A DNA stretch of 64,000 bases from Lophium mytilinum (GCA_010093605.1 MU004194.1:1030323-1094322); one strand, 5' to 3'; counted from the stretch's first letter, positions 2,002-25,477 are shown. The notes: generated by a model not told the origin, from the letters alone. A program made the numbers and translations.

Positions 2002-2149
2002 TGCGGGGTTGTGTAGTTTCGCTGCAGGTTTCGCCCGTGGAGTTTTGAATGGCGGGGTGGTGCCAAGATTTCAATTTGTCGGATGCGAAATAGCACGGAA
2101 TCCTCGGCTAAATTATTTGAGCTCCGCATTACAATTTCAACATCCCCAC

Positions 2150-6332: not shown

Positions 6333-7692
6333 ATGGCGGGCACGCAGCGATATCTGCGCTACATCATATTTGCACTTGTGGTACGTCAATTCAATGCGTA
6401 TCGTTAGCCATTGCATGTGCTGACTCCCTCCAGTGCCTAATCCTTCTCTTCTTCATCTCCTCATCCTCCACCGTCCCCTCGACACCGTGGCAGAACGGCA
6501 AACCGGAGACAGTGGATGAGCCCGAGATTGGGAACCAGAGCACCTCGCCCAAGACTGCCCCTACGACCCCGAATACCCAGAACGAGCTTTCCCCGGCCAC
6601 CGCATCTGGGGACCGTATGAACGCGACCTTTGTCACTCTTGCCAGGAACTCGGATCTCTGGGAGATTTCTCGCTCCATTCGCCAGGTTGAGGACCGCTTC
6701 AATCGCAAGTTCAACTACGACTGGGTCTTCCTCAACGATGATGACTTCGACGACGAGTTCGTCAAGGTTACCACGTCCCTAGTCTCCGGCAAAACAAAGT
6801 ACGGCAAAATCCCCACCGAGCATTGGTCCTTCCCCGACTTCATCGACCAGGACAAGGCTGCTGCAGTCCGTGAGGAAATGAAGGAGAAGAAGATCATTTA
6901 CGGTGACTCTATCAGCTACAGACACATGTGTCGATATGAATCCGGGTTTTTCTTCCGTCACCCGTTGATGCTGGACTACGAGTGGTACTGGCGTGTGGAG
7001 CCCAGCATTGAGCTCTTCTGCGACATCAACTACGATACCTTTAAATTCATGGCCGACAACAAGAAGAAATACAGTTTCGTCCTCAGCTTGTACGAATACG
7101 TCGAGACCATTCCAACCCTTTGGGACGCCGTCAAGAACTTTACCGCATCACACCCCGAGCACATTGTCAAAGACAACTCTATGGGCTTCCTGAGTGATGA
7201 TAACGGCGAATCTTACAACCATTGCCATTTCGTAAGTACCACGAAGCACCCTTACTTCCGTAGATCTAATTTTGCTCTCGCAGTGGTCCAACTTCGAGAT
7301 CGGCAACCTAGACTGGCTGCGCTCGAAGGCATACGTCGATTACTTCGAATCTCTCGACCATTCCGGCGGCTTCTTCTATGAACGATGGGGCGACGCGCCT
7401 GTGCACTCGATCGCGGCTGGTTTGATGCTCCAGAAGGACGAGATTCACTTTTTCAACGACATTGCATACTACCACGTGCCCTTCACCCATTGCCCAACGG
7501 GCCAGCAGACACGACTGGATCTGAAGTGCCACTGCAACCCTAAGGACAACTTTGACTGGAATGGGTATTCATGTAAGTTGAACGCCACCATCATATAATC
7601 GAAACGTGTCTCTGACCCTTTGAACAGGCACTTCGCGCTTCTATGAGGTCAATGGAATGACAAAGCCAGAGGGGTACGAAAAGGAGCAATAA
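6333..7692 (+). CDS. Alpha-1,2-mannosyltransferase, glycosyltransferase family 15 (KRE2/KTR/MNT1-like)
   Basis: Type II anchor ([24 protein letters not shown]); motifs [48 protein letters not shown]. Three short introns. Confidence 0.93.
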
Positions 7693-8443
7693 ATACCGTT
7701 AAACCAACACCAGTAATTCCCACTCACCTCCAACTACTCTCCTCGGCAACCCCCTCATCCTCTCCGTATCACTCATCATACACCGCGCCCCCCAACTGAC
7801 TCCTTTGCTGTCGGATAGCGCTCCCGCATCTGCTAAGGAATGGAGTTTCTGGCTCCTCAAACGCATCTTCCTTGTAATCCTCATCATTGCGGCGTTAGGC
7901 ACTTGGCTAGGTTCGAAGACAAGGCGGCCCGGGTTCGGTTAAGGAGTGCGTATCACTGGAAACAAAGCCAGATCTGCATTATCTATTTGCTCTTGGTTGC
8001 ATCTTTCATTCGCGCTCCGTCGTGTACTTGATGGAATAGGGACTGCTTTGTGGTTTAAGACTACGCTGGTCGGCAGGTGGCGTTTATGGATGTGCATGGC
8101 ATTGCACGGCATGGCTTGAGCTGGACAGTTAAGGGAAATGTTTTGCAGTTACGTGTGTATCATCAGCTTCACGACAAAAACATCGAGTTCGTCGTGAGCC
8201 AAACCAGGTTTCTTCATCTTGCTAAACGGTCTTCAAGCTAGTCTTTGTGGCTAGCTCATATCTAGAGCTGTCAAATCCTCAGCCGTGCTAGTTCCTCCCC
8301 ATCCTCAGTCAACTTAATAATTTATATCGCCAACGAGGTCGCCATTTGACTCACTTATCTGGAAAGAAGAAGAAGTGTATTCATCGTAACACAGGATTCG
8401 TGAACCATGTCCTACTACAGGGCGTCTCAAATCCATCTCTCCT

Positions 8444-9355
8444 CTACTCTTCCTTCGAGAAGAACCCAACATCCCCACTCACCTTTCCCAACTCCACTAG
8501 CCTCTCCAGCATCCCCTCCGCTCTCACCTTAACCTCTTCCTCCAACGCCCCAAAATCACACCTACCCACCCACTCCCCAACTCCATGCTGCAGCACATTC
8601 CTCGCCCTCCCCTTCCCACCCCTCACACACCCCACACTCCCATGCAACGTCATCCTCTCCCTTCCCTTATCATACGCCCCACGATGCAAAATATTATTAT
8701 CATAAAATACCACATCGCCAGCACCCAACTTCACCTTTATCTCCCCCTCTAACCCCCTCTCATATGGCCCCGCCGCCCTCTCCTCTTCCGTCCTCGCCCG
8801 CCTCTGACTCCCCGGCACCACGATCAAACTCTCATCCTCGTACAGCGGCAGATTCCACTGCGCATGCCATGCCGGCCGCCCCAACCTCTCCATCTCCTCT
8901 TCCGGCCCCGCGTCCGCCGGCACGTCATCCCGGTGCCACCGCAGCTCGAAGTCTTCGTCAGGCCGGACTAAGAGATTGTAGAGTTCCATGACCAGCTCGT
9001 CCTCAGTGCAGCCCCCGCCGATCAGCTCAGCCACGACGGCGAGCAGCGGCGCGGAGAAGTAGCTTGAGGCGAAGAGGAGGTGGTCGGGGAGGTCTGGGTG
9101 CAAAAGGTGTTGCACGCCCCAGATCCCCGCCGAGGGGTCGGCGGGCCAAGGAGGAAACTGCTTGGGGAGCGTGCGGATGTAAGGCCAGGCGCCGGAGCGG
9201 GCGAGGGCGGTGGTGCGGGCGGCGGCGGCGCGGAGGGCTTCTAGAGTTTCTGGGGGGATGAAGGAGGGGAGGATGACGAAGCCGTCATGTTCGAGGGTGG
9301 CTCGGAGGTGGGATTTGGGGAGAGAGGCGGTTGTTCTGGGTATTTCGGTGGCCAT
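8444..9355 (-). CDS. Phytanoyl-CoA dioxygenase (PhyH) family 2OG-Fe(II) oxygenase
   Basis: LEHDGFVIL N-terminus, WHRD iron-binding motif, LIVVPGSQR, GDVVFYDNNILHRG, RMTLH. Confidence 0.85.
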   Translation of the reverse strand: MATEIPRTTASLPKSHLRATLEHDGFVILPSFIPPETLEALRAAAARTTALARSGAWPYIRTLPKQFPPWPADPSAGIWGVQHLLHPDLPDHLLFASSYFSAPLLAVVAELIGGGCTEDELVMELYNLLVRPDEDFELRWHRDDVPADAGPEEEMERLGRPAWHAQWNLPLYEDESLIVVPGSQRRARTEEERAAGPYERGLEGEIKVKLGAGDVVFYDNNILHRGAYDKGRERMTLHGSVGCVRGGKGRARNVLQHGVGEWVGRCDFGALEEEVKVRAEGMLERLVELGKVSGDVGFFSKEE

Positions 9356-9905
9356 TTTGGCAGAGGGAGGGAAGCTACATTGGAGGGGGTTTGGGGGGGT
9401 TATTAGTTGGGTCTACTTAGAGGTGGTATGGCTATGTTGTATCGTGATGTTGAGTTGGAGTTGAGATGGTTCGGGCGAATGAGGGCCGATTCGATAATGT
9501 CGATGCTACTCACGTGACATATCATCTCAGTACCCAGTTGAAGTATTAGGAGGAATATTACGTGCCAATGGATGAAGTGGTTAGGAGAACAGAAGAAACA
9601 ACTCTGTAGTGACACACTTAGGTAGTTCATAAATTGATATAGTTTGTGAATGTTTCGATACCAATATATTGTTCATTGGGTGACGCCTCTTGACGCACGA
9701 AAGGGTTTGATAGATACAAGTAATCGCGACGGATCTCGCTTCAGAAGAACGTAATGATCCCATCTCTATTCGATAATGGGGTTGTAACAGAATGAAAAGC
9801 GTCGAGAACTCCGTCCCAACGGCCGTTGATGTTTGCAATGATCAATTGCATATGGTATCCGTGCGAAGCCTCTTGGGCTAGACACACACTGAACATGATT
9901 CTCCT

Positions 9906-10501
9906 CTACATGTGAGCACCAGCGTTGCCCCATCTCCTCAAGTTCTCCGGGCCAGCGTGCTCGCCGTCGATCCATCGCTTCAGGGTATCCATCCACCACT
10001 CCTTAGGCTCGTCCTCTCGCTTTTCGGGAACAGTAGTGGGAACAGGTAGAGGCTTCAAGGCAGTGACAAAGGTGGAAGGAAAGGGAAAGCCAAAAGAGCC
10101 GGTTCCTGTGGGGCCAGCTGTACCGACAGTACCAGTACCAGTTGTAATGAGAGCTCCTCGGCGCTCACGCCTAGCGCGGCCGGGAGTTGGCTCAGGAACG
10201 GCGAAGGGTGCTGAAGTCGGTGCAAGGTCATATCGGACCTTGAGCTTTCTGACGCCAGTGGCTACGGGAATGGGTACGAAGCCACTGCTGGCAGTGCCGG
10301 TAGGAAAGCCGGTAGGGAAGCCTGTGCTAGCGGTAGCTATAACAGGGCCGTGCTGGTAGCCAAAAAGGTCGGCGAAGATATCTTTAGGGAGAAGGTCAGC
10401 ATCTAAGGTTCTTCGTAGGGGTGGCATGGCTATCACGTACCAGCTGATGCTACGCCAACGGATCCAAGGATCAAGAAAGATCGGAGAGTGTTGAAGAGCA
10501 T
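9906..10501 (-). CDS. Secreted Thr/Pro/Gly-rich protein with dibasic sites
   Basis: ATG at 10501 encodes the signal peptide MLFNTLRSFLILGSVGVASA. A GTACGT...AAG intron (10440-10382, GCTGAC branch site) joins it in frame to DIFADLFGYQHGP... of the 9906..10568 ORF. Confidence 0.65.
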
Positions 10502-12366
10502 GGTTGCGGAATTGCTCTATATAATCGGTACTCGGAAAGCGAATGATAAACGGTCTTTCGAATGGCACAGCCAGAAAGAGTGAAAAAGGAGCAGCGAAAG
10601 ACAGACTACCTAAGACAAGTCTTAGGATTGAAAGAAGGTGGTGGTAAAGTGAAAGAAAAGAAGCTCAAGAGCTTGAATAAGTAGAGAACGAGAGTGAGTC
10701 CGCGATACTCAAACGGTACAGAAGAAAGCGGATGTACTTGATGAAGCAGCTACATTGCTCCATTTATTGGCTTTCTAAGGCTATCCCGCCTAGTTGATTG
10801 CTTCTCCACAAAAGAAGCAGCAGTACCACGATCTCCTTCCATAACAACCGTTACAAAGCCCTGCAGTACTACCCTCAAGCCTCATTGGAAGCACACCAAC
10901 CCGGTACTTCTGCAGATCGTGAACAGAAACATGTCGGAGAGGCCGGGAGGATGTTTCTGTTTCCGGGTGGTCGCCCAATCAACGGAGCATCTACTATTCG
11001 TGCCGCCAGAAACGATGCATGAGCGACCTCGCCAAGCTCTCTAAGGCAGGAGGACGGTGGTACGCATGCTCCTTCCATTAAGGTATTCGGCCGTTGAGTT
11101 AGATGGCAGTGTACCAGGGAGAGAGGATCTTGCGGCTGTAGGGAAGGCGGCTAGGAAATAAGGAGATTAAGTCCACTTTTTCGCTTGCCGATCCGTTTCG
11201 AGCGCCCCTGTTCACGAAAATGATGGCGAATCACATCCCCATCACGTGTTTCATCCTCCTTCAGCCGATTACGAGTCGCATGAACGCTAGGGACCCATTA
11301 AAACACTCAACTACAATCGTCTTTCTTCGATTAAGTGCGCCACCGCAATAGGAATGTTCTTGATCAAAGCACTGTTGCAGACCAAACTCCGAAGTTAACA
11401 TCCTTGTTCCTGAGGTGCATTTGGCTATCGACTTCAACGACGGGATCACGCAACAAAAGGTCCTATCTCGAGAACACTGCCTTATCTTTCGGCGAGCTGT
11501 TGCGAAACTAGGCTCAGGGTGGCTGTAGGAATCTCGGAAAGATTACGAACGACAGCTGACCTCTTCACCACACCGCAAAGGCCGTCTTTGTCCACCAAGA
11601 TCATCCTATTCTTTCAGCATCCATATACGATAGCTGATACACAGCTAGCACTTACGCATATGATAGGGTACTGAACCGCCGCACTTTATGAGCGGAAGAC
11701 CTGCCGGAGATGCCTACGGTTCATTCATTCCCGGAGCTCAAATCCCGTCTGGATGTTTCACAGCGCAGCTCGGCCCATCTAGGCATGTCTGGTCTGAGAG
11801 TCAAACGAATCGCTCTTTCTGTTATACAAGCCGAAAAGGAAAGCCCGCTTTAATCCGAAAGACTAAAAATTGCTTGATATTCTGCGATCCTATCAACATT
11901 TCAGAAATTGAATTTCATTCCCTTCATCATTCCGCTTCATTCTCTTACTTGATGCCCATTACATGAGCACTGGATTCTCACTCCTCCCCCGGCTCTTTGG
12001 TTGCTCTACAAGCAATTTTAGTCATTAGTGATGCTTCTGCAGAATGACATCCATGGCCGAACACGATCACTCATCGTTCCAAGGGTTAAGCCTCTACAAT
12101 CTACATTGTGTGTACGCCGTCTAAGGGTTGTATATACACCACGTCTTTTGCTTTCAGCGGCCACACTCTGTGTTCTTACACCGATTCGCATTGGAGCTGC
12201 ATATTACAGGTGTGTTCTTAATTTTGCTGGTTTATAAAAAGATCCACACATCCAACCTTCACTCTAGCAACATCTTCTCCCGTTCTCTCGCGCAACAGAA
12301 CAAACGCCCCAACAACAAACTCAAGACCCTTCTCTTTGTAGACCTCTCACCAAGCCTTCCGGAATC

Positions 12367-13110
12367 ATGGATCGACCGCTCATCATCCTACCGGACTACC
12401 TTCAAGAGGAGGTCAGCCATCTCCCGAACATGAACGAACTCTTCGAGATGGAGGAGTCGGTTCGTCCCTGCACCTGGGGCAGCTTATACCATATCCTACG
12501 ATGCGGTCACAAGGTTCGCACCACCACTTCAGAGCGATGTGCAGAGAACTGCCGCATCTTTTGGAATGAGACAGATTTCGCTTACCCACGGTGCATCGAA
12601 AAGGAGCTACGCTCAATCATCGCAGCTGGTGGCGCCATGGACATTCCTGATGAAGACATCATTGAGGACATCAAGTTCGCTATTGAAGCTGAGATCGTCG
12701 CAAGTCGGAAGCGTGTTGCTACCACGGTGATGTATCGCGATCCTATAGAAGACTTCTACAGGGACAACTTCCCAGAACTGGTGGAGGCGGACACACTGAT
12801 GGAGACCACGCAGATGGAGGATGTCCAGCGCAAGTTCCTGCGTACTTCAGCGCGAGCACAGCCCTGGAACCCGGAGATCTGGCAGCGATACCACCGGAAC
12901 CATGTGGCTGATGCTCCAAATCCTACTCGTCGGTACACTCTGGCGCCAGTTCCTGCCGATAATCTTATGGATAGTCTGACTAAGGACTTTCAGTCATTTG
13001 ACACTGTAGTCCAGGACGACGAACACAACGCTCAGGTTGACGAGATCGGTGATCTGTTCGGACGTCTTGAAGCCAAGGACTCAGAACCAGACGTAAACAT
13101 GTCCACATAA
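12367..13110 (+). CDS. Orphan Cys/His zinc-motif protein, paralog 1 of tandem array
   Basis: Intronless 247-aa ORF with motif CTWGSLYHILRCGHKVRT..RCAENC..FAYPRC. Collinear and clearly homologous over its full length to 13733..14479. Confidence 0.75.
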   Translation: MDRPLIILPDYLQEEVSHLPNMNELFEMEESVRPCTWGSLYHILRCGHKVRTTTSERCAENCRIFWNETDFAYPRCIEKELRSIIAAGGAMDIPDEDIIEDIKFAIEAEIVASRKRVATTVMYRDPIEDFYRDNFPELVEADTLMETTQMEDVQRKFLRTSARAQPWNPEIWQRYHRNHVADAPNPTRRYTLAPVPADNLMDSLTKDFQSFDTVVQDDEHNAQVDEIGDLFGRLEAKDSEPDVNMST

Positions 13111-13732
13111 CGGTCGACGCTATTGATGACTAGTATAAATGAGGCTGCAATCATCAGCAGGACTTGCTGGACTTCACGTCGTGGTGATATCATGAGCAAA
13201 CTCTAATTTGGTCGATACTTCCGCTATCCCAAAGAATACTGTTGACTTGCAAGTGTCTGCTCCCTACTGAGACCTTGATTGGTGAGAAATTCTCCCAACC
13301 AAATAAATCATATCAAGAACTCGTATACCCTGCTATGTTTCTTTTACTTCACGTCGAGTACGTAAATAATGCCCGCTATACGTTTTGTGAGCCCTTTTCT
13401 TCCAAAACACTCCTCTTCTACCGTGTTTAGAACCAGTCATACCTCTACGAAACGACCTCAACGATCATCGGCTTCTCGCACCATGTCTCCTCTATGTACA
13501 TTGTTTATATATCATTCACATCGTTTACATACGCGACAGGTTTCACTTCCACAGCAGTGAAGTGAATGTCCATGATGCGCAACGGGACTACACAATGAAG
13601 GGGAAGATTCACTTTTGCTAGCGGATGAAAAGTCCTTCGCATGCGCTCCTCGAATCTTCACCAAATTCCAGAACTGACCCCCCCAACAGCAGTACCAAGT
13701 CATAGGTCACACGACGTCCCCGGTTGCCAAGG

Positions 13733-14479
13733 ATGGATATACCTCTGATCATCCTCCCTGCATACCTTCAAGAGCGTGTCCAGCGGCTGCCGTCATTGCA
13801 CATCAGCCCTTCCGAGATGGAGGAATCGGTCCGCCCATGCGCTCCAGCCAACGGAAGCCTGTACCATATCCTCCGATGTGGTCACAAGATCCGAACTACT
13901 GAGCCGCAGCCTTGTGGCCAGAATTGCAGGATCTTTTTTGGTAAGCCTGAGTTCTGCTGCCGTCGCTGCGTAGAGAAAGAAGTTCGTCAAACTCTTGCGA
14001 TTGGCGGTGAACTGGCAGTTCCTGAAGAAGAAGTACAGGAAGAGGTGAATTGGGCCATCCAGACTGACCTAGGCCTGTGTGGGAAGCGCGCCGCAGAGAC
14101 GGTCACCTACCGTGACCCGGTCGAGGACTACTATCGCGACCGCTTCTTCCCTGAGCTTGCTGCCGAAGACTACGAATCAACTGAGATGCAAGGCGTTGAG
14201 CGTAGGTATCGGCGAACTTCGGCTCGTGTTGAGCCTTGGAATCCTGAAATCTGGAATCGTTTTCATCAACGTGACCAGAACGGACAAACTCGCCGACGTC
14301 GGTATACGTTGGCGCCGGCTGTTTCTGATGTTCTCGTCGATGACTTGACCGAAGACCTCCGACAGCTCGAGGCTACAGTGCGCGATGAAGCACAGGATCA
14401 TGAAATCGATGTGATTGACAACTTGCTTGGCCATCTCCAGGCTGGAGAGTCGAGCCCAGACGCTGAGACGTCGCGATAG
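13733..14479 (+). CDS. Orphan Cys/His zinc-motif protein, paralog 2
   Basis: Start MDIPLIILPAYLQE; motif CAPANGSLYHILRCGHKIRT..PCGQNC..FCCRRC. Shares YRDP.ED.YRD, RTSAR..PWNPEIW and RRYTLAP with paralog 1. Confidence 0.78.
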   Translation: MDIPLIILPAYLQERVQRLPSLHISPSEMEESVRPCAPANGSLYHILRCGHKIRTTEPQPCGQNCRIFFGKPEFCCRRCVEKEVRQTLAIGGELAVPEEEVQEEVNWAIQTDLGLCGKRAAETVTYRDPVEDYYRDRFFPELAAEDYESTEMQGVERRYRRTSARVEPWNPEIWNRFHQRDQNGQTRRRRYTLAPAVSDVLVDDLTEDLRQLEATVRDEAQDHEIDVIDNLLGHLQAGESSPDAETSR

Positions 14480-15889
14480 GTAAGCCCAGACGTGACTTGC
14501 TAGTAGTCTCGTTTTCAGAGCTTAGCTTCTATGACGCGGAGTCTTGAGCATTTCTCGATGCAGCGGCTATTAACTACGGAGACACTGAAGCTGTTTTCTT
14601 GGGCGATGGACGTCTTGTGAACGGTATGTGGAGTAGGTATAAGGATATTTCTCCCCTAGAATAGCTAGATCTTGATCAGCGAGAAACTCTCCTGATCGAA
14701 CCAATGAAGGCCCCTCCCCCAAATATGAAATTTGCTATTGGTCATCGAGAGCCGTTCTGTCATGATGTGCAATCTAATCACAAAATTTAGGGAGACTTCC
14801 ACTGTTGCTGATAGAGAAGAGGAGCTGCAGATAGCGAAATGGCATGGAGGAATGAGGTAGACCGGCGGTAAACGTAAAGTCCGCCGAATTAGATAAGAAC
14901 GCGCTTTGTTTCCTAAACATCTACTCTTCAAACAAATGAAAGCCCGGGATCCCCTTCTGCCCGCAATATCAATTTCTTCTCAAGAGAAATCCTGGCCTAA
15001 GTGCCATTTGACCAACAGTGAAGATTAACGAGTAGATCAGCCCCCTTTCTGTGACGTATCTGTACAGATATCTGCACATTGTCACTCAGGGCATGAAAAG
15101 GTGGCACTCTCATCTTGGACACGCCATGATGGATGTATACACGTGCATGCCACTGTTTGGGTTGCCTCACCGCATTTCCGGAAACCTGAGCTACTTTACT
15201 ATGGACTTCATGAATACTAGCTGAAGTACTTCAAACAGTGGCAGACAAGTGTACATAGAACAGAGTAGTGAAGAGTGTGCCAGATACTTCTTAAACAAGA
15301 GTGACTGTCTCGCTACCGTCCATGGGTGCTTCAACACACTTCAAGATATTGGAAAAACCTAGAGCGTCACCGTTCCAAGTAGTTCGTGAAATCGTTAAGG
15401 CACTGCCACGGAAGGCAAGCAACTGTTGTTCAGCGCCGTTCGATTGGCGTCCTGAACTTCTTGACATCTTTTGCCAACGCTTGGAGATGGTCTCCATCAC
15501 CCAGCGCAGGAATGAGCATTGTAAAGAGATGATGAGAAGCACTGACCAGACGCTATAAACCATCTCTACTTCACCCTAGATCACTAACAAACGCGGTGAA
15601 TGCCTGACAGCGTCCTAACCCCACGTCACGTCACATGTCCACCGCCCGATATAAATTCATAACAACGCGGCCTTTTCAACCCGCCATTTCGCAACTACAA
15701 ATCTCCCACGGCGCAGACTCACAACCATCATTCACCAAGCTCCATTTCGCCGCAAATCGCACACTAAGCAATCGCACGCGACCCATTCACCCACCATCAG
15801 TTCGCCGCGAACCGCGCACTGAGCACTCTCAGGTAAGCAGCTATCCAAAACACTCCACAAACCGCACTACCAAAGCAGCCACCGCAACC

Positions 15890-16669
15890 ATGTCCCGCCG
15901 AGTCCCGTGGCGCTACCGCCTCTTCGACCCCCCCTCCGAACCAACCACCCCCGCTCCATCACCAGAACATCCCACCGCCCCCCTCTCCCTCGAGCAGTTG
16001 GCCGCCAATGTCGCGCCCTGCATCCCAGACTCTCCGTACCATCTCCTCGCCTGCGGCCACAAGATCCGCACCCCCACTTCTATGTCCTGCGGCAAGAACT
16101 GCCAGCAGCCCGGCGACTTGGAGGAGTTCTTCTGCGCGCGCTGCTTCACAGAACCTTTGTTGGAGGGTTATATGTCTGAGGAAATGGTGAAGGCGCGGCT
16201 CGCGCGGGCAGTGGCGGAGGATTGTGGGTTGTACAAGATGCGGGAGTGTGAGGCCGTGCAAGACAGGGAGGGGATAGATGACCTTATGGCTGAGATGTTT
16301 GGGGAGGAGTACGAGAAGGCGGAGGAGGAGGCTAAGAAGGAGGAAGGGAAGGTGAGGAAGCGGCCGGGTCGGGGGTCCACTGTGAGGACAGAGGAGAAGG
16401 AGGGGACGGAGAGGAAGCGGCCGGGTCGTGGGGCAAGGATGCCGCAGCGTCCGATGATGAAGATAGAAGAGGCCGAGGAGAATACAGGCGGTGAATTGGG
16501 CCGGACGGCGGGGACAGCTGCGTTATCTGATGAACTTGCGAGGCTTCCCGGGCGGGATCAGCTGGATGGAGGAAGAGATCGAGCCCGCTCTGCGTCGCCT
16601 GTTCATGAGGGTGTTCGACGCCGTCGCTCCCGATCCCCGCTTCCGAGGCGTAAAGAGACTGAAGACTAA
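15890..16669 (+). CDS. Orphan Cys/His zinc-motif protein, paralog 3 (basic/RS-rich tail)
   Basis: ATG at 15890 (MSRRVPWRY); motif CIPDSPYHLLACGHKIRT..SCGKNC..FFCARC; duplicated RKRPGRG; C-terminal RRRRSRSPLPRR. Confidence 0.72.
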   Translation: MSRRVPWRYRLFDPPSEPTTPAPSPEHPTAPLSLEQLAANVAPCIPDSPYHLLACGHKIRTPTSMSCGKNCQQPGDLEEFFCARCFTEPLLEGYMSEEMVKARLARAVAEDCGLYKMRECEAVQDREGIDDLMAEMFGEEYEKAEEEAKKEEGKVRKRPGRGSTVRTEEKEGTERKRPGRGARMPQRPMMKIEEAEENTGGELGRTAGTAALSDELARLPGRDQLDGGRDRARSASPVHEGVRRRRSRSPLPRRKETED

Positions 16670-17074
16670 TTCTGGTAATTTGGCATATGGGCGAATAAGG
16701 AGAAATTGTTGGTAAAGGGAGAAGATTGCCCGAAAGGGGCCTTTGACTCGTTGTATGATAGTGTTGGAAGAATGCAGCTCCATATCAGAAGCCTGAACAT
16801 ATGCCCTTTGAAAAACCTTTTGCCACCGTTTGAAGTGCCCTCATATGTTTCTATGACTTGAGTATGATGCAAAGATTGATGAAGTCGTTTTCCGGCTACC
16901 TTTTGATCGAAAGCTCATAAACTAGCTAGGAACCTCCTTATAGTCGTGTCGAGCGTTCAAAGATGGAGGTTGAGTAGTAAGATATCCGTGTGACGAAGGC
17001 ACCGTATGCATGTACGAAGTGCAATTCGACATGCAGATAGACTGGACTGCATTTTGGTCAACCTACTGCCTCAT

Positions 17075-17425
17075 ATTCGCCGCCGCTTGGGGTACCCCCA
17101 TAGGTTTTAAAGAATCTAAACATGATGTTAATGTCGACGCTGCATGACTCGGATTATAATTTTCAGAGAATAGCTACCCGCTGGCGGGGCCATCCTGACA
17201 GTGGTATCGCGGGAGCAAGAGTGGAGCTTGAGTAGTGGAATATGCGCTCGCCTACATTTCAAGCCTGTTCTCACGTTATAAAAGTTTAGAACAGTGTAAA
17301 TCGCACTACCTCTTGACTGGTTTACTACCTGAGAGCTGAGCTACTCCTAACACTGGCGTCGAATAAGCAAGGGCAGAGTCTCACTAGTATGAACTCGGTA
17401 TGCCCGAACTTATGAAGTAGTACTG
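17075..17425 (-). mobile_element. Degenerate copy or copies of the ~220-bp MITE family
   Basis: Contains gcttggggtacccc, ctacctcttgactgg, gctactcctaacactgg and ends gtatgcccgaacttatgaagtagtactg, matching the reverse complement of the 56023-56238 and 37058-37509 elements. Confidence 0.6.
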
Positions 17426-17657
17426 TGCCGTGAAACAGATAGGTTATAAAGAGAACGCGTAGAGGTCAAAGAATCTAATGACGCCTTGACCAATCCTTTC
17501 ACCATTGTGACGGCACTACATCGCTTACATTAGCCGCAAGACCTGTTCTGTTGAGATCGAACCTACTTTGTAGAGCTTCCGCGACCTTCGCTAAACCTTT
17601 CCTCACTCTTATACCAACAACAACCGACGTAACAAACGCCACAGCCTACCCTCAACA

Positions 17658-19556
17658 ATGACTTCCCCCAAGAGCGCACACAAATTCGATCCCAACTTCT
17701 CCAAACGCGACGCAGAAGATGGCCCTCCAGCCACACCGGCCTCCGAGCTCTTCCCCAGCGGCTGGGCCACCACTTTCGGGGACAACCTTCACGCATTCAA
17801 TCCGTCGCCGTTGGACCTAGGCGCCGCGGGCAGTGAACTCCACCACCGAACTAGCTCGGAACAGTACCATGTCACCCATGAAGAAAACACTTCTGATCCT
17901 GGAGACCCGATGGACATGACGGACGAGGAAGATTCAGGAATGCTAGCTAGTGGCGAGGACTCTTCTAGCTATGACGAGGAGACGACGTCTGCGCTACCGG
18001 CACCGGCGGGTGCACAGCACGGCAGTCCCGTTGATGACGGTCTTTGGGCGGCTGGGACGGAGGATCAGCCTATTGAACTCGATTCTGAAGACGAGTCTGA
18101 TGGCAACCTTGCCGGCGATGTTGATGAGAATCAGCCTATCGAGATCAATTCTGACGACGATTTTGAAGAGGGCCAGCCTATTGAACTCGATTCTGCCGAC
18201 GGGGCTGATGGAAATCCTGCCATCAACATTGATGAGGATCAGCTTATGGAGTTCTATTCTGACGACGACGATGCTGACTGGGATCAACCTGAGAAACTGT
18301 ATTCTGGCCCCGAGTCTGATGAGGAATCTGATGGCGAGTTGGAAGAGGCATCTGAGGGCGACTTGGTTGAGGAAAATAACGGCGAGTTGGATCAGGAGCC
18401 TGATTCATCAACCATGCTCGCCGACGGCACGGCTGCGGCTGTTATGGATTCAGTTGAGGTCCAAGACGCCGTCGTGCTGGAGACAGATACTCAAGAGGAT
18501 GTTACTTCCAGCGAAGAAGCTACCAGTGAGCCGGAATCTCTCGCCCTCACTGAGATCCCCGGACCAACCACCACCACCCACAAGCCTAAGCAATTCCGGC
18601 TCCGCTGCGATATGGGCCAGTGCATCCATATCTTGCGCTGCGGCCATGCAGTAGTCGCCATCGACCCTTCCGACGGATGGATATGTGGAAAAAATTGCAT
18701 CAGGAAACAAAACCGGTCCAGCGTCAAGGGAGAGTTTGGTTGCCGTCTATGCCTTCGACTGAACAATGGGCATGCGGTATCTTGGTATCTCCACCGACTA
18801 GACGACCTGCTACTGCCCCGCTACGTCCCGGCGGACGAGCCCAAGAAGATGGCGAAGTACCGGCTGACCGAGATCGTTTTTCTGGTGAGCGACAGCGATG
18901 TCTTCCCGCGAGCCATTCGCGCGCCGCCCAACACAGGCGTGATCCGAACACCGCTGAGTAAGGAGGAGCTTGCCTTCGACGTTGCTGGCGCTACAGTCAT
19001 CGCGGCGGATACGCTGAAGAATATCGGCGACATACGCTCAGCCGTCTCAGTAGCTGCGACGAGAGAGCACCAGCGATACGAGAAGGCTAAGAAGGCGGCC
19101 CGCACATTACAGCCGCGTGTCGACCTCAAAGCCAGAGAAGAACTGATCTCTCAGATCGAGCACTTCAGCAACCAGTTGGAGCTCGAAGTTGCTCCTGACA
19201 GGCCTGCGGGCTGGGGAGCCAAGATGACGGCGTGCTATATCTTTGAGCTTGTCGAGTATGGGACGAAGCTGTCGCTGTTTCCGGTAGATGTTGTGATGGC
19301 CGCTTGCATCGTCACGGGGTTCGAGAGGCTACAGTTTGAGGTCGCAGGCGTGTTCGCAGGCGCGTCGATCGTTAAAGTCTGCGAGTTGATGCAATGCAAG
19401 GTGGATGAGGTTGAGGCCGCAATGATAGCTCTCAAGGAAGCCTTGTATTGCAGAGCTGTCACCTGGGCTGGTTATATTCCACGCTCATTCAAGCGGACGA
19501 CGTCGCAGCAGGAGGTTTTGGTGTGGATTGCTAAGGAGATGTTCCCGAAGGTGTAG
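17658..19556 (+). CDS. Cys/His zinc-motif paralog 4: acidic SIM-like repeats, zinc motif, TFIIB/cyclin-like C-terminus
   Basis: 632-aa ORF with repeated QPIELDS/QPIEINS in an acidic region, motif CDMGQCIHILRCGH..ICGKNC..FGCRLC, and helical C-terminus IEHFSNQLEL...VVMAACI...VCELMQCKVDEV...GYIPRSF. Confidence 0.75.
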   Translation: MTSPKSAHKFDPNFSKRDAEDGPPATPASELFPSGWATTFGDNLHAFNPSPLDLGAAGSELHHRTSSEQYHVTHEENTSDPGDPMDMTDEEDSGMLASGEDSSSYDEETTSALPAPAGAQHGSPVDDGLWAAGTEDQPIELDSEDESDGNLAGDVDENQPIEINSDDDFEEGQPIELDSADGADGNPAINIDEDQLMEFYSDDDDADWDQPEKLYSGPESDEESDGELEEASEGDLVEENNGELDQEPDSSTMLADGTAAAVMDSVEVQDAVVLETDTQEDVTSSEEATSEPESLALTEIPGPTTTTHKPKQFRLRCDMGQCIHILRCGHAVVAIDPSDGWICGKNCIRKQNRSSVKGEFGCRLCLRLNNGHAVSWYLHRLDDLLLPRYVPADEPKKMAKYRLTEIVFLVSDSDVFPRAIRAPPNTGVIRTPLSKEELAFDVAGATVIAADTLKNIGDIRSAVSVAATREHQRYEKAKKAARTLQPRVDLKAREELISQIEHFSNQLELEVAPDRPAGWGAKMTACYIFELVEYGTKLSLFPVDVVMAACIVTGFERLQFEVAGVFAGASIVKVCELMQCKVDEVEAAMIALKEALYCRAVTWAGYIPRSFKRTTSQQEVLVWIAKEMFPKV

Positions 19557-20281
19557 GATAGTGATGTGAAGTACAGCCTTAAGAAGGAGCACTGATGGCT
19601 GAACGGAACGGTCCGAGAAATGTGTGAAATCCAGACGGTGATAGAATCCTTGAATAAGAAGACAATATATAAAATCCTCGTCAGTAAAGCAGTCAAGACC
19701 CGGGAATCATAGGCAGAGCTCGTTGGCTTGACCCCCCTATGTGAATTGAACTTACCTGAGGCAGCGGCTACAGGCACCGGTATCGCCTTGAGACATCCTC
19801 GGGTCCCGAAACGTGTTCTACGCGGCAACTTCAAGAATAGCGCTTCGTAAATTGTCCGTAAGGGATAGTGGTAGGCAGATTAGGAGAAAATGACTGCATG
19901 CCATGAGTTGGTAGGTCTTGATGAGACGGCTGCGCATAAGAATATCGTTCTTGAGACAACCCACGCCGTACCGATAATTGCAACTTGACACTTCCTAACG
20001 ACAGCGGGTTGCTAACGGGGAAGGAGAACATGGACCCCGGATGCTAAGGGTTCGTAGAGATATCATGAATCAACAGTGTCTACGAAGAAGATTGCGCGAG
20101 ATGATGCAGAGTCTCAATCACACTGGGAACTACTATACTAATGCACTCGAAAATGTCAGAAGTTCGTGTTCGTCAACTAGGAGATTAGGAAATGGAAAAC
20201 GTGATTATATCTTCTAACATCTAGAGCAAGTTGGAGATGAATTTTAGCACTTAACGCATCACCAATAGGTGTTTCGAAGTA

Positions 20282-20506
20282 CTGTAAGTGGCCACAAGCC
20301 TGTGCACCATTGTTTGCTATTACTTAGGTGGCCTCATGGAGCTTCAACACTGTAGGCGCTAAATCAAGTTTCAAGCAGTGCAACTTGAGTTGTGTTCAAT
20401 TGATTAGCTTCCTGGGAACGCGTCGCTCCTGACAATTACGTCTAGGTTCCAAGATGGCACTTCAGCAGTGGTATATAGGTGCGCCTAGACTTGAGGTGTA
20501 GCACTA
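20282..20506 (-). mobile_element. Degenerate MITE copy immediately downstream of the nitrilase stop
   Basis: Starts ta-ctgtaagtggccacaagcctgtgcac, contains ttcaagcagtgca, ends gtgcgcctagacttgaggtgtagcacta. Same length and termini as the family. Confidence 0.6.
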
Positions 20507-20511
20507 CAAGA

Positions 20512-21858
20512 TCAAGGTGGAGGATTCAGGTCTAGCCCTTCAACGTGGAGCTTAAAGGCATCATTCCTGGAGTAAGACCCCGCAACGTCAAGGTCCAGTC
20601 GGCCACGCTCACAGTCTTCGAAGTCTGCCTCGACAACCAAAAGCTTGCCATCGGTGACTTCCCAGAGTGGGCCAGCGAGTACCTCACCCAGTGGTGACAC
20701 GATACACGACCCACCTCTACAAAGGAACTCTTCATCGTCTGTACTAGCGCCGTAGCTTTTCGAAGAGATCGAACCCGTGGGACTGGCTTTAGGAAGAGGC
20801 CATGATATTTGATGATGTTCGGCAGTCTCCGTGATGATCGACTTTCTCCTACCTAGTGGCCCTCCATCACCCTCTTCATCAAATACCGATGGCGGATGGC
20901 TGGTTTGAACACCGTTCTCCTTTGGAGAGACCGAATCGTCTTGTTCTTCGGCATCCTTCTCGACGATTGGCCAACAAATTTCATGCTTATCCTCCGTGAA
21001 AGTGACTGTAGATCGTCTTCGACGGTGTGATGGGAGGACCTCGGTGCTTCGAGGTGGTTCGTTTTTGTGTGGAGTGGCAGTGGTCCCTTGGACCCACGGT
21101 GGTAGATGCTTCCTCTTAACACATTGATTAGCACTTAGCACGAATGCCCTGCTCTCGCATCCCACCGTCTGCATGAGTGGTAACCAGGTATCCCGCGCGT
21201 CGGCTGTTGGTGCCAGATACAGATTGACATTTTGTGAATAGAGACTATGTCGGAGGAGTGGCATGTAGTTCTCCCAACAGATTGCAGCAGCCAGCGTCAA
21301 CTTGACTCCCTGGATTGTTGTTGTGACGGCGCGTAGAGTACTCGGGCTTCCCTGTGCCCAGATCAACCTTTCAGATCCTGTTGGCATGACCTTCCTCCTC
21401 TTTCCGAGCACTCCGTAACGTGGACACACGTATACAACGCCGCAGTATAGGCTGCCTCCTGCTTTCTCGACGAGACCAGTGACGATGAAGACGCCGGTCT
21501 CTCGGGCTATCCTTTCCAGCTCTTCCCGGGTCCCATCTCCCCTATATTTTGTGTCCTTCGCTACGGGAAGCTTCTTGTCTACCCAATCGTCTCCAGCGCC
21601 GACTGGTGTGTCTCCGAGATCGACTGCAGCATGGAAGTATTGGAGGAATTGTTCGCGTCCGATGGGGTCTCTAGCTCCCACTGAAGCACCGAAGCTGCAG
21701 GTTCGCGGGTATCCGCCGAGGTAGGCTTCGGGAAATAGGACCAGATGGACGCCGGATTGTGATGCTGAGCGCGTTGTCTCTTCAAGAGCGTGGAGAGTGT
21801 CGACGGTAGAGGACAGAGTTCGGGCTTGGGCTACTGCGAGTTTCAATTTTTGAGGCAT
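20512..21858 (-). CDS. Nitrilase / carbon-nitrogen hydrolase
   Basis: Triad motifs LVLFPEAYL (E), [15 protein letters not shown] (K), AICWENYMP (C); C-terminal [14 protein letters not shown] at 21858. Confidence 0.92.
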
Positions 21859-22475
21859 TGTATCGTCAGAGTGATGCAAACTATCAGCTGAGTCTGGATA
21901 ATGGTAAGGTTGAGAAGTACGAGCTTCCGCTGATTGATGAAGAGACGGGTGAGTGAACGATTGAGTGCGGGGACAGCTTTGTCACTCTACCCTCACCAGT
22001 CGCAATCGGGGTGCCAATATATCCACTAACTCACCAACCGCCATACCCGCACACAAGACTGGAAAGGAAGCTCTGTGAGCTGAGGGTATGCACATAGCTC
22101 ACGAGGTTGAACTGCAATGCCTCGAAGGTTGATTCCGCCTTGCTAAAAGTAGGGAGGAGCTAGCCCAAAACTGTCTACTGTTTCCGAGGCTTCTTTGACG
22201 CTTCAAGCTTCATTCCCCATTCGTCCCGTAACCTTGGTCGTTTATTCATGGTCCGCACCCTGGTCTCGTATATGAGTGTCATATGATTCTGCAAAGAGTG
22301 TGTCTAGAGGATGGCGTGGATGGCTAGAGTGACGCTATAGTACTGCGCCTCCACATTCCTTGTCTGCAGCGGGAACACAAGACAGGTGCCAGTATAAGAG
22401 AAGCCAGAATCCGAGGCGATTTGCTTGCAGTAAGAGGCCTCTTGCGACCGAAGATTCTTGTCATCTAGAATTACA

Positions 22476-23165
22476 ATGGCTGGCAAGGGCGAGTATGTAG
22501 ATGTCACCAAGCAGACCGAGGACTATGTCGACGTCACAACGGCACCACCGGCATATAATGAGCCTAGTGAAGCGGAAGGGTCGACTTCTGAGAGCAGGGC
22601 CTATATTGACGCTTTGAAAGCAGATGCCAAAGGGAAGGAACATGGGTAGGTGGTCCGGCTGAGAAGGAACAGGCGTTCACAGTTATTTTACTGTTTCATC
22701 TCGCTAACCTCACTATTCCTCAGGCAAACTCTAAGAGAATCATCGAAAGAAAGCTCGTCGAAAGCTGAACTATCAATCGCCGAAGAAGTAGCATTAGACA
22801 TCCGCTCCCTAGACGTCGGCGACCCGAATGAGTCCATTTCAGTGCCCATGATTTTGTCCACCGAGAAGCGCTCTTTTAAGTCTTTCATCAAGGGAAGAAG
22901 CGGCGAAATTTCTCAGCAAGTCATTGTGCGAAAGATGACGCGAGAACATTACAAGAAGTTCTATGCCAAAGATAAGAACGGTAATTACATCGGCACCGAG
23001 AAGGCAGCTCCGGACGCTGGACTGGTATTCGTGCCGTCCAAAAGCACATCGGAGGATATCTTGGAGCAAGTGAAGAAGGTTGCGTTTGGGAAGGAGCATT
23101 ATATTGATGGCTTTGGGGGTGCTTACGGTTATGGAGGAGCCGGAGGTGCGTACGCGGCTATGTAG
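22476..23165 (+). CDS. Hypothetical protein (two exons)
   Basis: ATG at 22476 (MAGKGEYVDV) and an intron ending CTAAC...CAG at about 22723 join to the ORF VIVRKMTREHYKKFYAKDKNGNYIGTE. Confidence 0.65.
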
Positions 23166-24781
23166 ACTCCGGGCGAATAGTGAATATGTTTCTAAACGCC
23201 GTCTCAGATGCTTGAATTCGCTGGGCTACTATGATTCTCATCCCGAATGGAACGATAGTCTGTTAGCGGATATAAGAGCGTTCAAGACGCCTATTATCCA
23301 ACGGGACGCCTCGAGAAGACCCTGCTGGCGCAACATGCCCCAACTCCAGGGCCCATTCATCGAGCGTCCTATCCTATAGTTTCATCAGCTTCATTGGCGT
23401 CACCAGAAACATGACTGTCGTGTCCCCTTTCCACTCTCGTGCTTTCGGCGCCATACTTGTTTGTCCTTGGCCTCAACAGTATTGCGATACTGCCTCCTCT
23501 GATGATCAAGAAACGCCACAAATGTGTTTCATTGAGCCTTGAGTTTTCAATGTAGCTAAGTAGTCATAGCTCACTGCCCGCCAGGTTTATTGTGGATAAG
23601 GTGTCGCATGACAGAGACCATAGTCCGTTGTGAAATCGCCATCCCTTCAATAACCCCAAGCCCACTCAGTCTCCTCAGACTAGCGGGCCTTACTTCTTGG
23701 AGGAGACGTCTATTTTCATGCATGTAGACTAGAGAAGATATCTGTTACGCAGGACGGACAATGGTAGGTAGCAATCGGTAGCTTTCAGAAGCCCCATCCA
23801 TTTATTTTATATGAGGTTCTCACGTATAGGAAGCAGCTACAACCGCTTCTTTCTCTATTCTCTAGCTTTCTCATACATTTTTGGGCACACCATAAGTCTA
23901 AATTGTAGACGGGCTGAGCCCGCGGACGGCTGACGGCAGTGATGGCTCAATTTAAGACCTACCTCTGCGCTTTTCGCAGGCTCGCACGATATCAGCCACC
24001 GCCGTCTTGAGGATCCGAACGATCAATTGGTGGCGTCCATTTGATTTTGTTCAGAGAGACGATTCTTTTGTGTAACGATTGCCGAAAAGGAATCATGGAG
24101 ATAATCAGTTGCGAGTAGTGCCTCGTCGCAGTATATCTGAAACCCCTCTTGAGTTGACCGGTGAAGCATGGGTCTCGTATTCGGTCCACGTACTGTCCCA
24201 TTTACACCTACAGAGAGGCGACACTCTGCGGGACATCAAGATGGAGGTCCACGATAGATATTCTCCTGTTGCTCCTATTATTACGCCGAAGTGACCGGCA
24301 CAACTTGCACCCCCACGCGCCTAACAGAGCCCATGCAGCCGACATAGACCTTCACCGGCTTCTAGAAACAACGGATGGCGTTTTGCGTGGAGCGGCACGC
24401 AACGGACTCGAACCCCTGGTGAGGAAGAGTGCGGCAGATCAGCAGATGCCCCTGGCGTGGCACTGTGCATCGCGGGGCGCTCCGAAAAACGTGTCTCGGA
24501 TCCCCCCCCAAACCTCACCGTAGCCAGCCACCACCTCAACCACCTTCCCAAGTCATCTCCGTTCACACCACGCTTGAGCTCACCGCACCGAAGTTGAAGC
24601 GAGTTTTCAATAGATGAAGACGGCAGACGCGGCGCCATCTATCTCTCGCCTCCGGCACTTGTCTGATCTTCTACATATGGAACACTTCAGGCAGCTAACA
24701 TAGCCGCGCCGCTATCATATATCTGGATTCAACGCCGCCTGTAGCTCCTCTCTAGGGCTGCCACAATGCATAAGGCGAAGA

Positions 24782-25477
24782 GCCATGATGATTTAGATCA
24801 GCCACGAGCCGGAGCTGGTGGCCCAGTGCGTCGTGGACGCTTTCTCTAGCACGGCTCGCAGAATCACAGACCTCAACCCTCGAAAAGGGCCTCCTAAGCT
24901 GTGCCCCTAGCACGCCACCTTACCTTCTTCTTCAGCCATCTCAAGCTTCGGCGTGGGAGAGTGCTTCAAGAGAGGCGCGAATGTCTTCCGGCACCTGGAC
25001 ATTCGCGAGACCACCGGCGCCGAAGAGGCATGGCGGCCTCCACTCGAATAATACGTCAACGCATTGCGGAGCCAGTTCAAATATGATGTCGACCGCTTTC
25101 TTCCCCGACATTCCGTAACAGCCAAGACCGTTGAAGAGTCGATTCACAGAGCTCTCAGAGGGACTCGACCGGCCCTTATGTATTGGCAAGACGAAAGGCT
25201 TCTCCCCACCAATCCGACGACGCTCTCTCGGCCTCGGTATGTTCGCAGCTCGCCCGCGTGGCAAGAAGGGCGCTGCCTTCGAAACTGTCCTGTGTGCATG
25301 GCACGCGCCATGCCGCTGACAGGCGTGCGACAATGCTCGTGGCGAAGGGCCGTCGAACGGCTTCTGTGCTTCTTCGGGACGCAGAGAAGCGACTCTGCAG
25401 CCCGCCATGCCGTCTTGGCCCTTTCTCCCCGCATTCGCCCGGCCTATTCTTGTTACTACTGTCTGAGGCCACGCTGA
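24782..25477 (+). pseudogene. Degenerate gene with possible C-terminal MYND-like finger
   Basis: One frame reads as coherent protein but is interrupted by TAG 24794, TAG 24908 and TAA 25049. It ends CPVC...QCSWRRAV..LC...QRSD...RH, like a decayed MYND finger. Confidence 0.35.

What the first reader, a model, noticed from the sequence alone, without database searches (positions are those of the whole stretch)
12367..19556. Tandem array of four co-oriented orphan genes sharing an atypical C-H-C-H-C-C-C-C zinc motif
Seen: four intronless + strand ORFs share C-x(5-8)-H-[IL]L-x-CGH-x(9-12)-C-x2-NC-x(8-12)-F-x-C-x2-C, at about 12469, 13838, 16019 and 18606. Paralogs 1 and 2 align end to end; 3 and 4 share little beyond this core and have different appended modules. 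Established: LxCGH is the hallmark of RING/U-box-like folds, but this ligand spacing does not match canonical RING-HC/H2. Inference: a locally expanded, fast-diverging family of RING-like zinc proteins that I cannot assign to a named family, and the best candidate for an undescribed system in this window.
Basis: partly seen in the sequence, partly recalled or inferred. Interest (0 to 1): 0.8.

Follow-up and report, generated by a model that had tools for sequence, protein, structure and literature searches.

The report
Tandem fungal genes, undescribed two-zinc module
Four neighbouring genes of a Dothideomycete fungus share a small, conserved cysteine/histidine module that probably holds two zinc ions, fits no described protein family, is not a RING finger, and is joined to parts that point to a role in transcription or chromatin.

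Summary
Four + strand ORFs (12367-13110, 13733-14479, 15635-16669, 17658-19556) carry the C-H-C-H-C-C-C-C core at exactly the stated places. One correction: ORF1 has Tyr (TAC) at the seventh ligand.

The genes are not orphans. Thirteen outside cluster representatives match ORF2, and every named one is from Pleosporomycetidae. Mytilinidion resinicola has orthologues of ORF4, ORF3 and ORF1 with consecutive accession numbers on one contig, so the array is old and syntenic. Between ORF1 and ORF2, pS is 0.81 (saturated) and pN 0.29, which shows constraint.

My best reading is a lineage-restricted two-zinc docking module in nuclear transcription or chromatin proteins. RNA contigs cover ORF1, ORF3 and ORF4, but the strand is unresolved, and three minus-strand introns flank ORF4.

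The parts
12367..13110 (+). ORF1, 247 aa, ORF1/2 subfamily. Its closest relative is Mytilinidion resinicola P0002 (58% identity).
   Evidence: A 179-nt RNA-run contig lies at 12575-12753 (strand unknown). A TATAAAA sits at 12233-12239.
12469..12594 (+). Core module of ORF1, with Tyr (TAC) in place of the seventh ligand Cys.
13733..14479 (+). ORF2, 248 aa, paralogue of ORF1 (50% identity over the full length).
13838..13969 (+). Core module of ORF2, with all eight Cys/His. This is the core that was modelled (pLDDT 89.1).
15635..16669 (+). ORF3, 344 aa as an ORF. Similarity to the Mytilinidion orthologue P0004 (55% over 192 aa) begins at Met86 (nt 15890), which may be the true start.
   Evidence: RNA-run contigs lie at 15608-15926 and from 15985 onward.
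16019..16144 (+). Core module of ORF3.
16335..16432 (+). Two copies of a basic RKRPGRG motif in ORF3, also present in P0004 and several Pleosporales relatives.
   Evidence: (repeat D3)
17658..19556 (+). ORF4, 632 aa: acidic repeat-rich N-terminal half, core module, linker, helical C-terminal domain. Orthologues are P0021 (67% identity) and P0022 (43%).
   Evidence: An RNA-run contig is collinear over 17567-19668.
18066..18268 (+). Tandem repeat of 108 nt (1.9 copies) coding for Asp/Glu-rich sequence in ORF4.
18606..18752 (+). Core module of ORF4. The first ligand is the Cys that is invariant in the ORF4 subfamily (C-x6-H).
19116..19541 (+). ORF4 residues 487-628 (about 140 residues): predicted cyclin-box fold, closest to the first cyclin repeat of TFIIB.
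12299..12307 (+). AACAAACGC, 68 nt upstream of the ORF1 ATG.
15586..15594 (+). AACAAACGC, 49 nt upstream of the ORF3 ATG.
17631..17639 (+). AACAAACGC, 27 nt upstream of the ORF4 ATG.

Best explanation
The four genes are old tandem paralogues of a protein family that, as far as these searches reach, is confined to the Dothideomycete subclass Pleosporomycetidae.

The only part all members share is a module of about 45-50 residues with eight conserved Cys/His: C-x6-8-H-x3-C-x-H-x9-12-C-x3-C-x10-14-C-x2-C in the four window ORFs, with slightly wider spacing in relatives. It most likely chelates two zinc ions. The model shows a beta-hairpin with C-G-H in its turn, and the last C-x2-C sits at the start of a long helix. 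I infer that this module is a structural docking unit for a protein or a nucleic acid, not an enzyme and not a RING E3.

The parts joined to the module point to the nucleus and to transcription or chromatin:
- a C-terminal PHD finger in a Pleosporales subclade;
- basic RKRPGRG motifs and an Arg/Ser-rich tail in ORF3;
- a long acidic tract and a TFIIB-like cyclin-box fold in ORF4.

Shown: the genes, the motif, their conservation, the constraint, the synteny, the lack of a Pfam family, and the confident model without a structural neighbour.
Inferred: zinc binding, the pairing of ligands, nuclear location, and a role in transcription or chromatin.

My confidence is about 0.85 for the family and zinc-module part and about 0.45-0.5 for the nuclear regulatory role. 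The overall figure given is 0.5.
For: Genes and motif:
- establish the four ORFs and the core positions.
- Seven of the eight Cys/His columns are invariant and the eighth is at least 90% conserved in 21 sequences (likewise with 17 sequences).

Constraint and age:
- Between ORF1 and ORF2, pS is 0.81 and pN 0.29 over 244 codons. In the core alone pN is 0.23.

Relatives and synteny:
- phmmer of ORF2 against 1.84 billion representatives gave 15 hits at E 0.001 or better. Two are the window's own ORF1 and ORF3, leaving 13 from elsewhere.
- Named sources are Mytilinidion resinicola and the Pleosporales Corynespora, Lophiotrema, Massarina, Lojkania and Delitschia. I checked the lineage for three of them.
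- The Mytilinidion orthologues of ORF4, ORF3 and ORF1 are KAF2816602, KAF2816603 and KAF2816604, all on one contig of 3,067,355 nt.
- In the tree, ORF4+P0022 has 100/100 support, ORF3+P0004 99/99, a clade of the named Pleosporales members and unnamed sequences 86/93, and its PHD subclade 96/95.

No known family or fold:
- No Pfam family reached its cut-off for 4 of 4 ORFs or 17 of 17 members.
- The AlphaFold2 model of ORF2 residues 20-110 with a 21-row alignment has pLDDT 89.1 and pTM 0.70.

Appended parts:
- PHD (PF00628) scores above its cut-off in P0018, P0020, P0036, P0043 and P0037.
- The ESM Atlas feature hits also name TFIIB and Zn_Ribbon_TF (scores 0.75-0.80).
Against: - Zinc binding and ligand pairing were not tested, because no model coordinates could be read.
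- ORF1 (and relative P0019) have Tyr at ligand 7, so at least one site tolerates loss of a ligand or these copies are decaying.
- ORF1 and ORF2 carry no PHD, KRPGRG or cyclin part, so the nuclear reading for them rests on kinship alone.
- No Pfam TFIIB or cyclin family matched ORF4 or its two orthologues even at E up to 10.
- The Atlas scores of 0.75-0.80 are in the range that shuffled proteins often reach.
- KRPGRG lacks the G-R-P core that I recall for AT-hooks, and no AT-hook hit was listed.
- The phyletic limit rests on one single-sequence search and one word-indexed profile search, so wider relatives may exist.
- The strand of the RNA over the genes is unresolved.
Confidence: 0.5

Rival explanations
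1. RING-like E3 ubiquitin ligases. The core would be a cross-braced two-zinc finger that recruits an E2 enzyme.
For: The core has eight Cys/His ligands and an L-x-C-G-H stretch, which I recall as common in RING-HC fingers (not tested here). The modelled layout has a C-G-H knuckle in a hairpin and C-x2-C at a helix start. That allows an interleaved pairing of ligands 1,2,5,6 and 3,4,7,8.
Against: - The spacing does not fit the RING consensus as I recall it. The first pair is C-x6-8-H rather than C-x2-C. Ligands 2 and 3 are 3 residues apart rather than 9-39. Ligands 4 and 5 are 9-12 apart rather than 2-3. The third pair is C-x3-C.
- No RING-type Pfam family was listed at E 1 or better for 4 of 4 ORFs or 17 of 17 members.
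- The model has no helix between ligands 6 and 7.
Confidence: 0.08
2. ORF4, and by descent the whole family, is a lineage-specific offshoot of the TFIIB-type initiation factors. The two-zinc module would stand where the zinc ribbon stands and contact an RNA polymerase. The cyclin fold would contact TBP or DNA.
For: ORF4 has the order zinc module, linker, cyclin-box fold. TFIIB chains are the top structural matches in two searches, with Brf1 and Brf2 next. The Atlas feature hits name TFIIB and Zn_Ribbon_TF.
Against: - Only one cyclin repeat was aligned, whereas I recall two in TFIIB.
- Cyclins score within about 2 Z units of TFIIB.
- The model confidence is low.
- There was no Pfam TFIIB, Zn_Ribbon_TF or Rrn7 hit.
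- The core has eight ligands, not the four of a ribbon.
- ORF1-3 and the Pleosporales members share only the core with ORF4.
Confidence: 0.12
3. The module has a non-nuclear role, for example cytoplasmic metal handling or another protein scaffold. The PHD and cyclin parts would then be late additions that say nothing about ORF1 and ORF2.
For: ORF1 and ORF2 lack every appended part. No localisation was tested. The family has no characterised member (every name given is 'hypothetical' or 'uncharacterized').
Against: Three separate subfamilies each carry parts typical of nuclear proteins. By eye, the four N-termini show nothing that looks like a signal peptide; no predictor was run.
Confidence: 0.2
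4. Some copies are decaying or silent duplicates. ORF1 has lost a ligand, and ORF2 had no RNA contig.
For: ORF1 has Tyr at ligand 7 where its Mytilinidion orthologue keeps Cys.
Against: Both frames are intact over 247 and 248 codons. pN/pS is about 0.36 with saturated pS. ORF1 has a 58% identical orthologue and a 179-nt contig in the RNA run.
Confidence: 0.1

Closest known systems
RING / U-box fingers
   Same: Both have eight Cys/His ligands, enough for two zinc ions. Both have a C-x-H pair preceded by Leu. An interleaved ligand pairing is possible here too.
   Different: The spacing of pairs 1 to 3 does not fit the RING consensus as I recall it. There is no Pfam match. The helix sits at ligands 7/8 rather than after 5/6. 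No convincing RING match appeared in the fold searches.
Treble-clef zinc fingers (structural class; recalled from Krishna, Majumdar and Grishin 2003, not read here)
   Same: A zinc knuckle in a beta-hairpin turn (C-G-H) is combined with two ligands at the N-terminus of a helix (C-x2-C at model residues 57-60; the helix is 58-71).
   Different: There is a second set of four ligands (C17, H26, C42, C46) with no described counterpart that I could find. Membership could not be tested, because no coordinates were available and the core was not searched alone.
TFIIB / Brf / Rrn7 family (for ORF4 only)
   Different: Only one cyclin repeat was aligned. The zinc part has eight ligands and is not a ribbon. 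There is no sequence-level match. The model has low confidence.
PHD-finger chromatin readers (for the Pleosporales relatives)
   Same: P0018, P0020, P0036, P0043 and P0037 carry a PF00628 PHD finger above the Pfam cut-off, C-terminal to the core where the core is present; P0037 is a 182-aa cluster member whose core I did not check.
   Different: The shared core is a separate domain. None of the four window genes has a PHD finger.

Membership tests
RING finger (Pfam RING-type families) | Ligand pattern C-x2-C-x9-39-C-x1-3-H-x2-3-[CH]-x2-C-x4-48-C-x2-C (consensus recalled, not fetched) | tested here: not met
   The core reads C-x6-8-H-x3-C-x-H-x9-12-C-x3-C-x10-14-C-x2-C in the four ORFs, and similarly in the other 17 rows of the 21-row alignment.
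RING finger (Pfam RING-type families) | Match to a RING-type profile HMM | tested here: not met
   No RING-type family was listed at E 1 or better for 4 of 4 ORFs or 17 of 17 members.
RING finger (Pfam RING-type families) | Cross-braced two-zinc fold resembling solved RING domains | tested here: inconclusive
RING finger (Pfam RING-type families) | E2 binding and E3 activity | not testable with these tools
   Needs a biochemical assay.
Any Pfam-A family (for the shared core) | Score at or above a curated gathering cut-off | tested here: not met
   The best weak hits over or near the core, in any member, are HscB_4_cys (E 0.16, 12.3 bits against a cut-off of 26.2), Zf-Nsp1alpha (0.046) and Zn_ribbon_FGT1_1 (0.083).
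TFIIB family (ORF4) | N-terminal four-Cys zinc ribbon (PF08271) | tested here: not met
   There was no Pfam hit for ORF4 residues 305-632, P0021 or P0022 at E up to 10. The zinc part has eight ligands.
TFIIB family (ORF4) | Cyclin-box repeats (PF00382; two repeats in TFIIB by recall) | tested here: inconclusive
Cyclin-box fold superfamily (ORF4 C-terminus) | Structural similarity to solved cyclin-box domains that stands above other folds | tested here: met
AT-hook (for the KRPGRG motif of ORF3) | G-R-P core flanked by basic residues (recalled), or a PF02178 match | tested here: not met
   The motif is R-K-R-P-G-R-G. No AT_hook family was listed at E 1 or better.
PHD finger | PF00628 match above its cut-off | tested here: not met
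   None of the four window ORFs has it. It is met only in relatives P0018, P0020, P0036, P0043 and P0037 (25.2-29.1 bits against a cut-off of 24).

The most novel reading that the evidence does not exclude
The array encodes a Pleosporomycetidae-specific set of TFIIB-like transcription initiation cofactors. In this reading, a previously undescribed two-zinc fold has taken the place of the zinc ribbon. ORF4 still carries the cyclin-box that would contact TBP or DNA. The shorter paralogues (ORF1-3) would act as truncated competitors or adaptors at the same polymerase surface. That would make it a lineage-specific layer of promoter selection built on a new zinc fold.
Probability: 0.1. Interest if true: 0.7.

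Novelty: new variant of a known kind. Interest (0 to 1): 0.45.

Why it matters
If the module binds two zinc ions in the predicted fold, it is a new small zinc-domain family. It has a confident model (pLDDT 89), no match found among solved structures, and no Pfam entry, so it would be worth curating and solving.

It is joined to a PHD finger in one subclade and to a TFIIB-like cyclin box in another. That gives a concrete, testable lead to lineage-specific transcription or chromatin factors in Dothideomycetes, a class that holds many plant-associated fungi.

The conserved three-to-four-gene array of paralogues that share only this module is also an unusual example of how new domain architectures are kept side by side.

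It does not change any general principle. Lineage-restricted zinc-finger families are common.

Tried and rejected
Whole genome: none is held for this window, so genome-wide copy number was not obtained.

Sequence searches against solved structures:
- Profile A1 gave only weak histone H2A/H2B rows (E 0.38-2.5) over the non-core tail. I judged these compositional.
- Profile A3 gave 'structural protein ORF273' (4art_A, 4ats_A; E 5.4e-04 and 6.1e-04) over an acidic or helical stretch after the core, profile positions 68-120. I judged this compositional and did not follow it.
- Profile A4 gave Arp5 at E 0.79-0.85, which I rejected.

ESM Atlas for ORF2: the feature hits were unnamed Ascomycota clusters at 0.84-0.86, which are leads only. 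The structure hits had TM 0.36 or less.

The single-protein queries P0022 and P0023 found no confirmed relative. Synteny therefore rests on accession order only.

RNA:
- One run (X1) was listed, with its kind guessed. No run is on record as RNA.
- The three splice-type joints in its contigs show that it holds RNA-derived sequence.
- No contig of that run was laid on ORF2 or on 13004-15341. This is a blank, not evidence.
- The strand of the cover over ORF1, ORF3 and ORF4 cannot be told from contigs.

Papers, by search listing only: 'LxCGH' gave 0 papers. Six accession or locus-tag strings gave 0 papers. A five-term Dothideomycetes/zinc search listed 12 papers, none relevant by title or abstract start. 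A search on the four strings 'CHCHCCCC', 'CHCHC4', 'C2H2C4' and 'CHCH-C4' listed 29 papers; those shown for C2H2C4 were mostly on the MDM2/MDMX RING and the DM domain, and none of the 15 shown concerned this family. No paper was read. Supplements were not opened.

Earlier scan notes: nothing by place, sequence or words.

Complex prediction was not used, because this report claims no binding pair.

The DNA repeat search found similarity between paralogues only inside coding sequence (36-42 nt at 81-86%), so there is no recent duplication.


Full report
**1. The observation**

One search lists four + strand ATG ORFs at 12367-13110 (247 aa), 13733-14479 (248 aa), 15635-16669 (344 aa) and 17658-19556 (632 aa). 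The gaps between them are 622, 1155 and 988 nt.

A ligands-only pattern and a half-motif pattern each gave 0 matches in 100 shuffles of the window.

One detail is wrong. The strict motif ending F-x-C-x2-C fits 3 of 4 ORFs. ORF1 reads D-F-A-Y-P-R-C, with a TAC codon at the seventh ligand.

ORF1 and ORF2 align over their whole length at 50% identity. ORF3 and ORF4 are 24% and 23% identical to ORF1, and the invariant columns are those of the core. A profile-profile comparison of the ORF4 subfamily with the rest aligns 46 core columns only (probability 92.4%, E 5.3e-07).

**2. Real, old and constrained genes**

A Nei-Gojobori count over 244 aligned codons of ORF1 and ORF2 gives pS 0.81 (saturated) and pN 0.29, with pN 0.23 in the core. 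The ratio of proportions is about 0.36.

DNA similarity between paralogues is limited to short coding stretches.

**3. Relatives and synteny**

The genes are not orphans:
- ORF1 has a 58% identical relative in Mytilinidion resinicola (P0002).
- ORF3 has a 55% identical one (P0004).
- ORF4 has a 67% identical one (P0021) and a 43% identical one in an unnamed record (P0022).

phmmer of ORF2 against 1.84 billion cluster representatives gave 15 hits at E 0.001 or better. Two are the window's own ORF1 and ORF3.

All named sources are Pleosporomycetidae: M. resinicola (Mytilinidiales) and the Pleosporales Corynespora cassiicola, Lophiotrema nucula, Massarina eburnea, Lojkania enalia and Delitschia confertaspora. 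I checked the lineage for three of them. Every name given by a source is 'hypothetical' or 'uncharacterized'.

The three Mytilinidion proteins are KAF2816602 (ORF4-like), KAF2816603 (ORF3-like) and KAF2816604 (ORF1-like). All lie on one contig of 3,067,355 nt. Consecutive numbers in both GenBank and RefSeq imply adjacent genes in the same linear order as in the window. This is an inference, because I could not read that scaffold.

A tree of 23 core segments groups ORF4 with P0022 (100/100) and ORF3 with P0004 (99/99). It leaves ORF1, ORF2 and P0002 together but unresolved. The named Pleosporales members, together with unnamed sequences, fall in one clade (86/93) that holds a PHD-bearing subclade (96/95). 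P0021 was left out of the tree because my extraction pattern required Phe or Tyr where it has Leu.

**4. The core module**

In 21 aligned sequences, seven of the eight Cys/His columns are invariant. The eighth (ligand 7) is conserved in at least 90%, and L, G, G, N and F around them are also nearly invariant (one search agrees for 17 sequences).

No Pfam-A family reaches its cut-off for any of the four ORFs or any of 17 members.

AlphaFold2 on ORF2 residues 20-110 with the 21-row alignment gives pLDDT 89.1 and pTM 0.70. The model shows:
- a hairpin (25-28 and 33-35) with C30-G-H32 in its turn;
- short bridges around C42 and C46;
- C57-x2-C60 at the start of helix 58-71, followed by helix 79-90.

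I read this as a knuckle-plus-helix arrangement of the treble-clef kind with an extra four-ligand site, and I favour an interleaved pairing. No coordinates were available, so this is inference.

**5. The RING reading**

No RING-type Pfam family appears at E 1 or better. The modelled helix starts at ligands 7/8, not after 5/6. The fold test is inconclusive. I put the RING reading at 0.08.

**6. The appended parts**

- *PHD finger.* A Pleosporales subclade carries a PF00628 PHD finger above the cut-off: P0018, P0020, P0036, P0043 and P0037 score 25.2-29.1 bits against a cut-off of 24. In the full-length members it lies C-terminal to the core.
- *Basic motifs.* ORF3, P0004 and several Pleosporales members carry R-K-R-P-G-R-G motifs. 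ORF3 and P0004 end in an Arg/Ser-rich tail.
- *Acidic tract.* ORF4 has a 300-residue acidic N-terminal half with a 108-nt tandem repeat.
- *Cyclin-box fold.* ORF4 has a helical C-terminal domain. Its model is poor overall (mean pLDDT 52.1), yet the searches agree on a cyclin-box fold:
  - In Foldseek, 8 of the top 10 chains are TFIIB or Brf2 (probability 0.63-0.99, but E 0.1-0.75).
  - The ESM Atlas feature search had separately named TFIIB and Zn_Ribbon_TF clusters, at scores (0.75-0.80) that are leads only.

**7. Transcription**

One coded run (X1) holds 53% of the sampled words of the region. Its contigs, laid on 11000-21000, include:
- 179 nt inside ORF1;
- 319 nt over the 5' end of ORF3;
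- a 7,370-nt contig that covers 15985-21000 with three splice-type joints.

The skipped stretches are 17116-17255 and 17516-17566, both CT..AC on the + strand (GT..AG on the minus strand), and 19669-19755, which is GTAAGT...AT on the minus strand. So the run holds RNA-derived sequence, and at least part of the RNA around ORF4 comes from the minus strand.

The minus-strand exons hold no ORF longer than 86 codons. Contigs cannot assign a strand or a level to the cover over ORF1, ORF3 and ORF4.

**8. Verdict**

This is a real, conserved, syntenic array of three subfamilies (ORF1/2, ORF3, ORF4) of a lineage-restricted family defined by an undescribed, probably two-zinc module.

I commit to a docking module in nuclear transcription or chromatin proteins. 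My confidence is about 0.85 for the family and zinc-module part and about 0.45-0.5 for the nuclear role.

The boldest reading not excluded is a TFIIB-like cofactor family built on a new zinc fold (probability 0.1).

Novelty: new variant of a known kind. Interest: 0.45.

Noticed in passing
window 15985-21000 (joints at 17116-17255, 17516-17566, 19669-19755): An RNA-run contig of 7,370 nt carries three introns with minus-strand splice signals on either side of ORF4. It also runs over the 3' part of ORF3 and into the carbon-nitrogen hydrolase gene. The minus-strand exons have no ORF over 86 codons. Two readings are possible: a long spliced antisense or non-coding RNA over ORF4, or an assembly that merges overlapping transcripts. 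The third intron ends in AT rather than AG.
   Followed up: partly
window 12299-12307, 15586-15594, 17631-17639: The 9-mer AACAAACGC occurs exactly three times in the 64 kb. All three are on the + strand, 68, 49 and 27 nt upstream of the ATGs of ORF1, ORF3 and ORF4 (mean 0.41 in shuffles, and 0 of 100 shuffles had 3 or more). One 9-mer was shared by at least 3 of the 4 upstream regions, against 0.04 expected. ORF2 lacks it. It may be a shared promoter or 5'UTR element.
   Followed up: partly
window 15635-15889: The first 85 codons of ORF3 have no counterpart in the Mytilinidion orthologue, whose Met1 aligns with ORF3 Met86. The real start may be at 15890, although an RNA-run contig begins at 15608.
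   Followed up: partly
window 12584-12586 and protein P0019: The seventh ligand Cys is replaced by Tyr in ORF1 and, independently, in the unnamed relative P0019. Their closest relatives P0002 and P0012 keep Cys.
   Followed up: no
window 2-10664 and 20512-29326: The neighbours look like ordinary housekeeping or metabolic genes: a radical-SAM/flavodoxin protein, PAT1, a Glyco_transf_15 mannosyltransferase, a PhyH-type dioxygenase, a carbon-nitrogen hydrolase and a fungal rhodopsin-domain protein. There is no sign of a biosynthetic cluster around the array. Five ORFs had no Pfam match (9906-10664 -, 22650-23165 +, 24941-25477 -, 28289-29326 +, and 11688-11966 +, which was not scanned).
   Followed up: partly
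protein P0002 (Mytilinidion resinicola): P0002 departs from ORF1 and ORF2 over roughly residues 140-175 and then rejoins them. That looks like a mis-called intron or a frame problem in that gene model.
   Followed up: no
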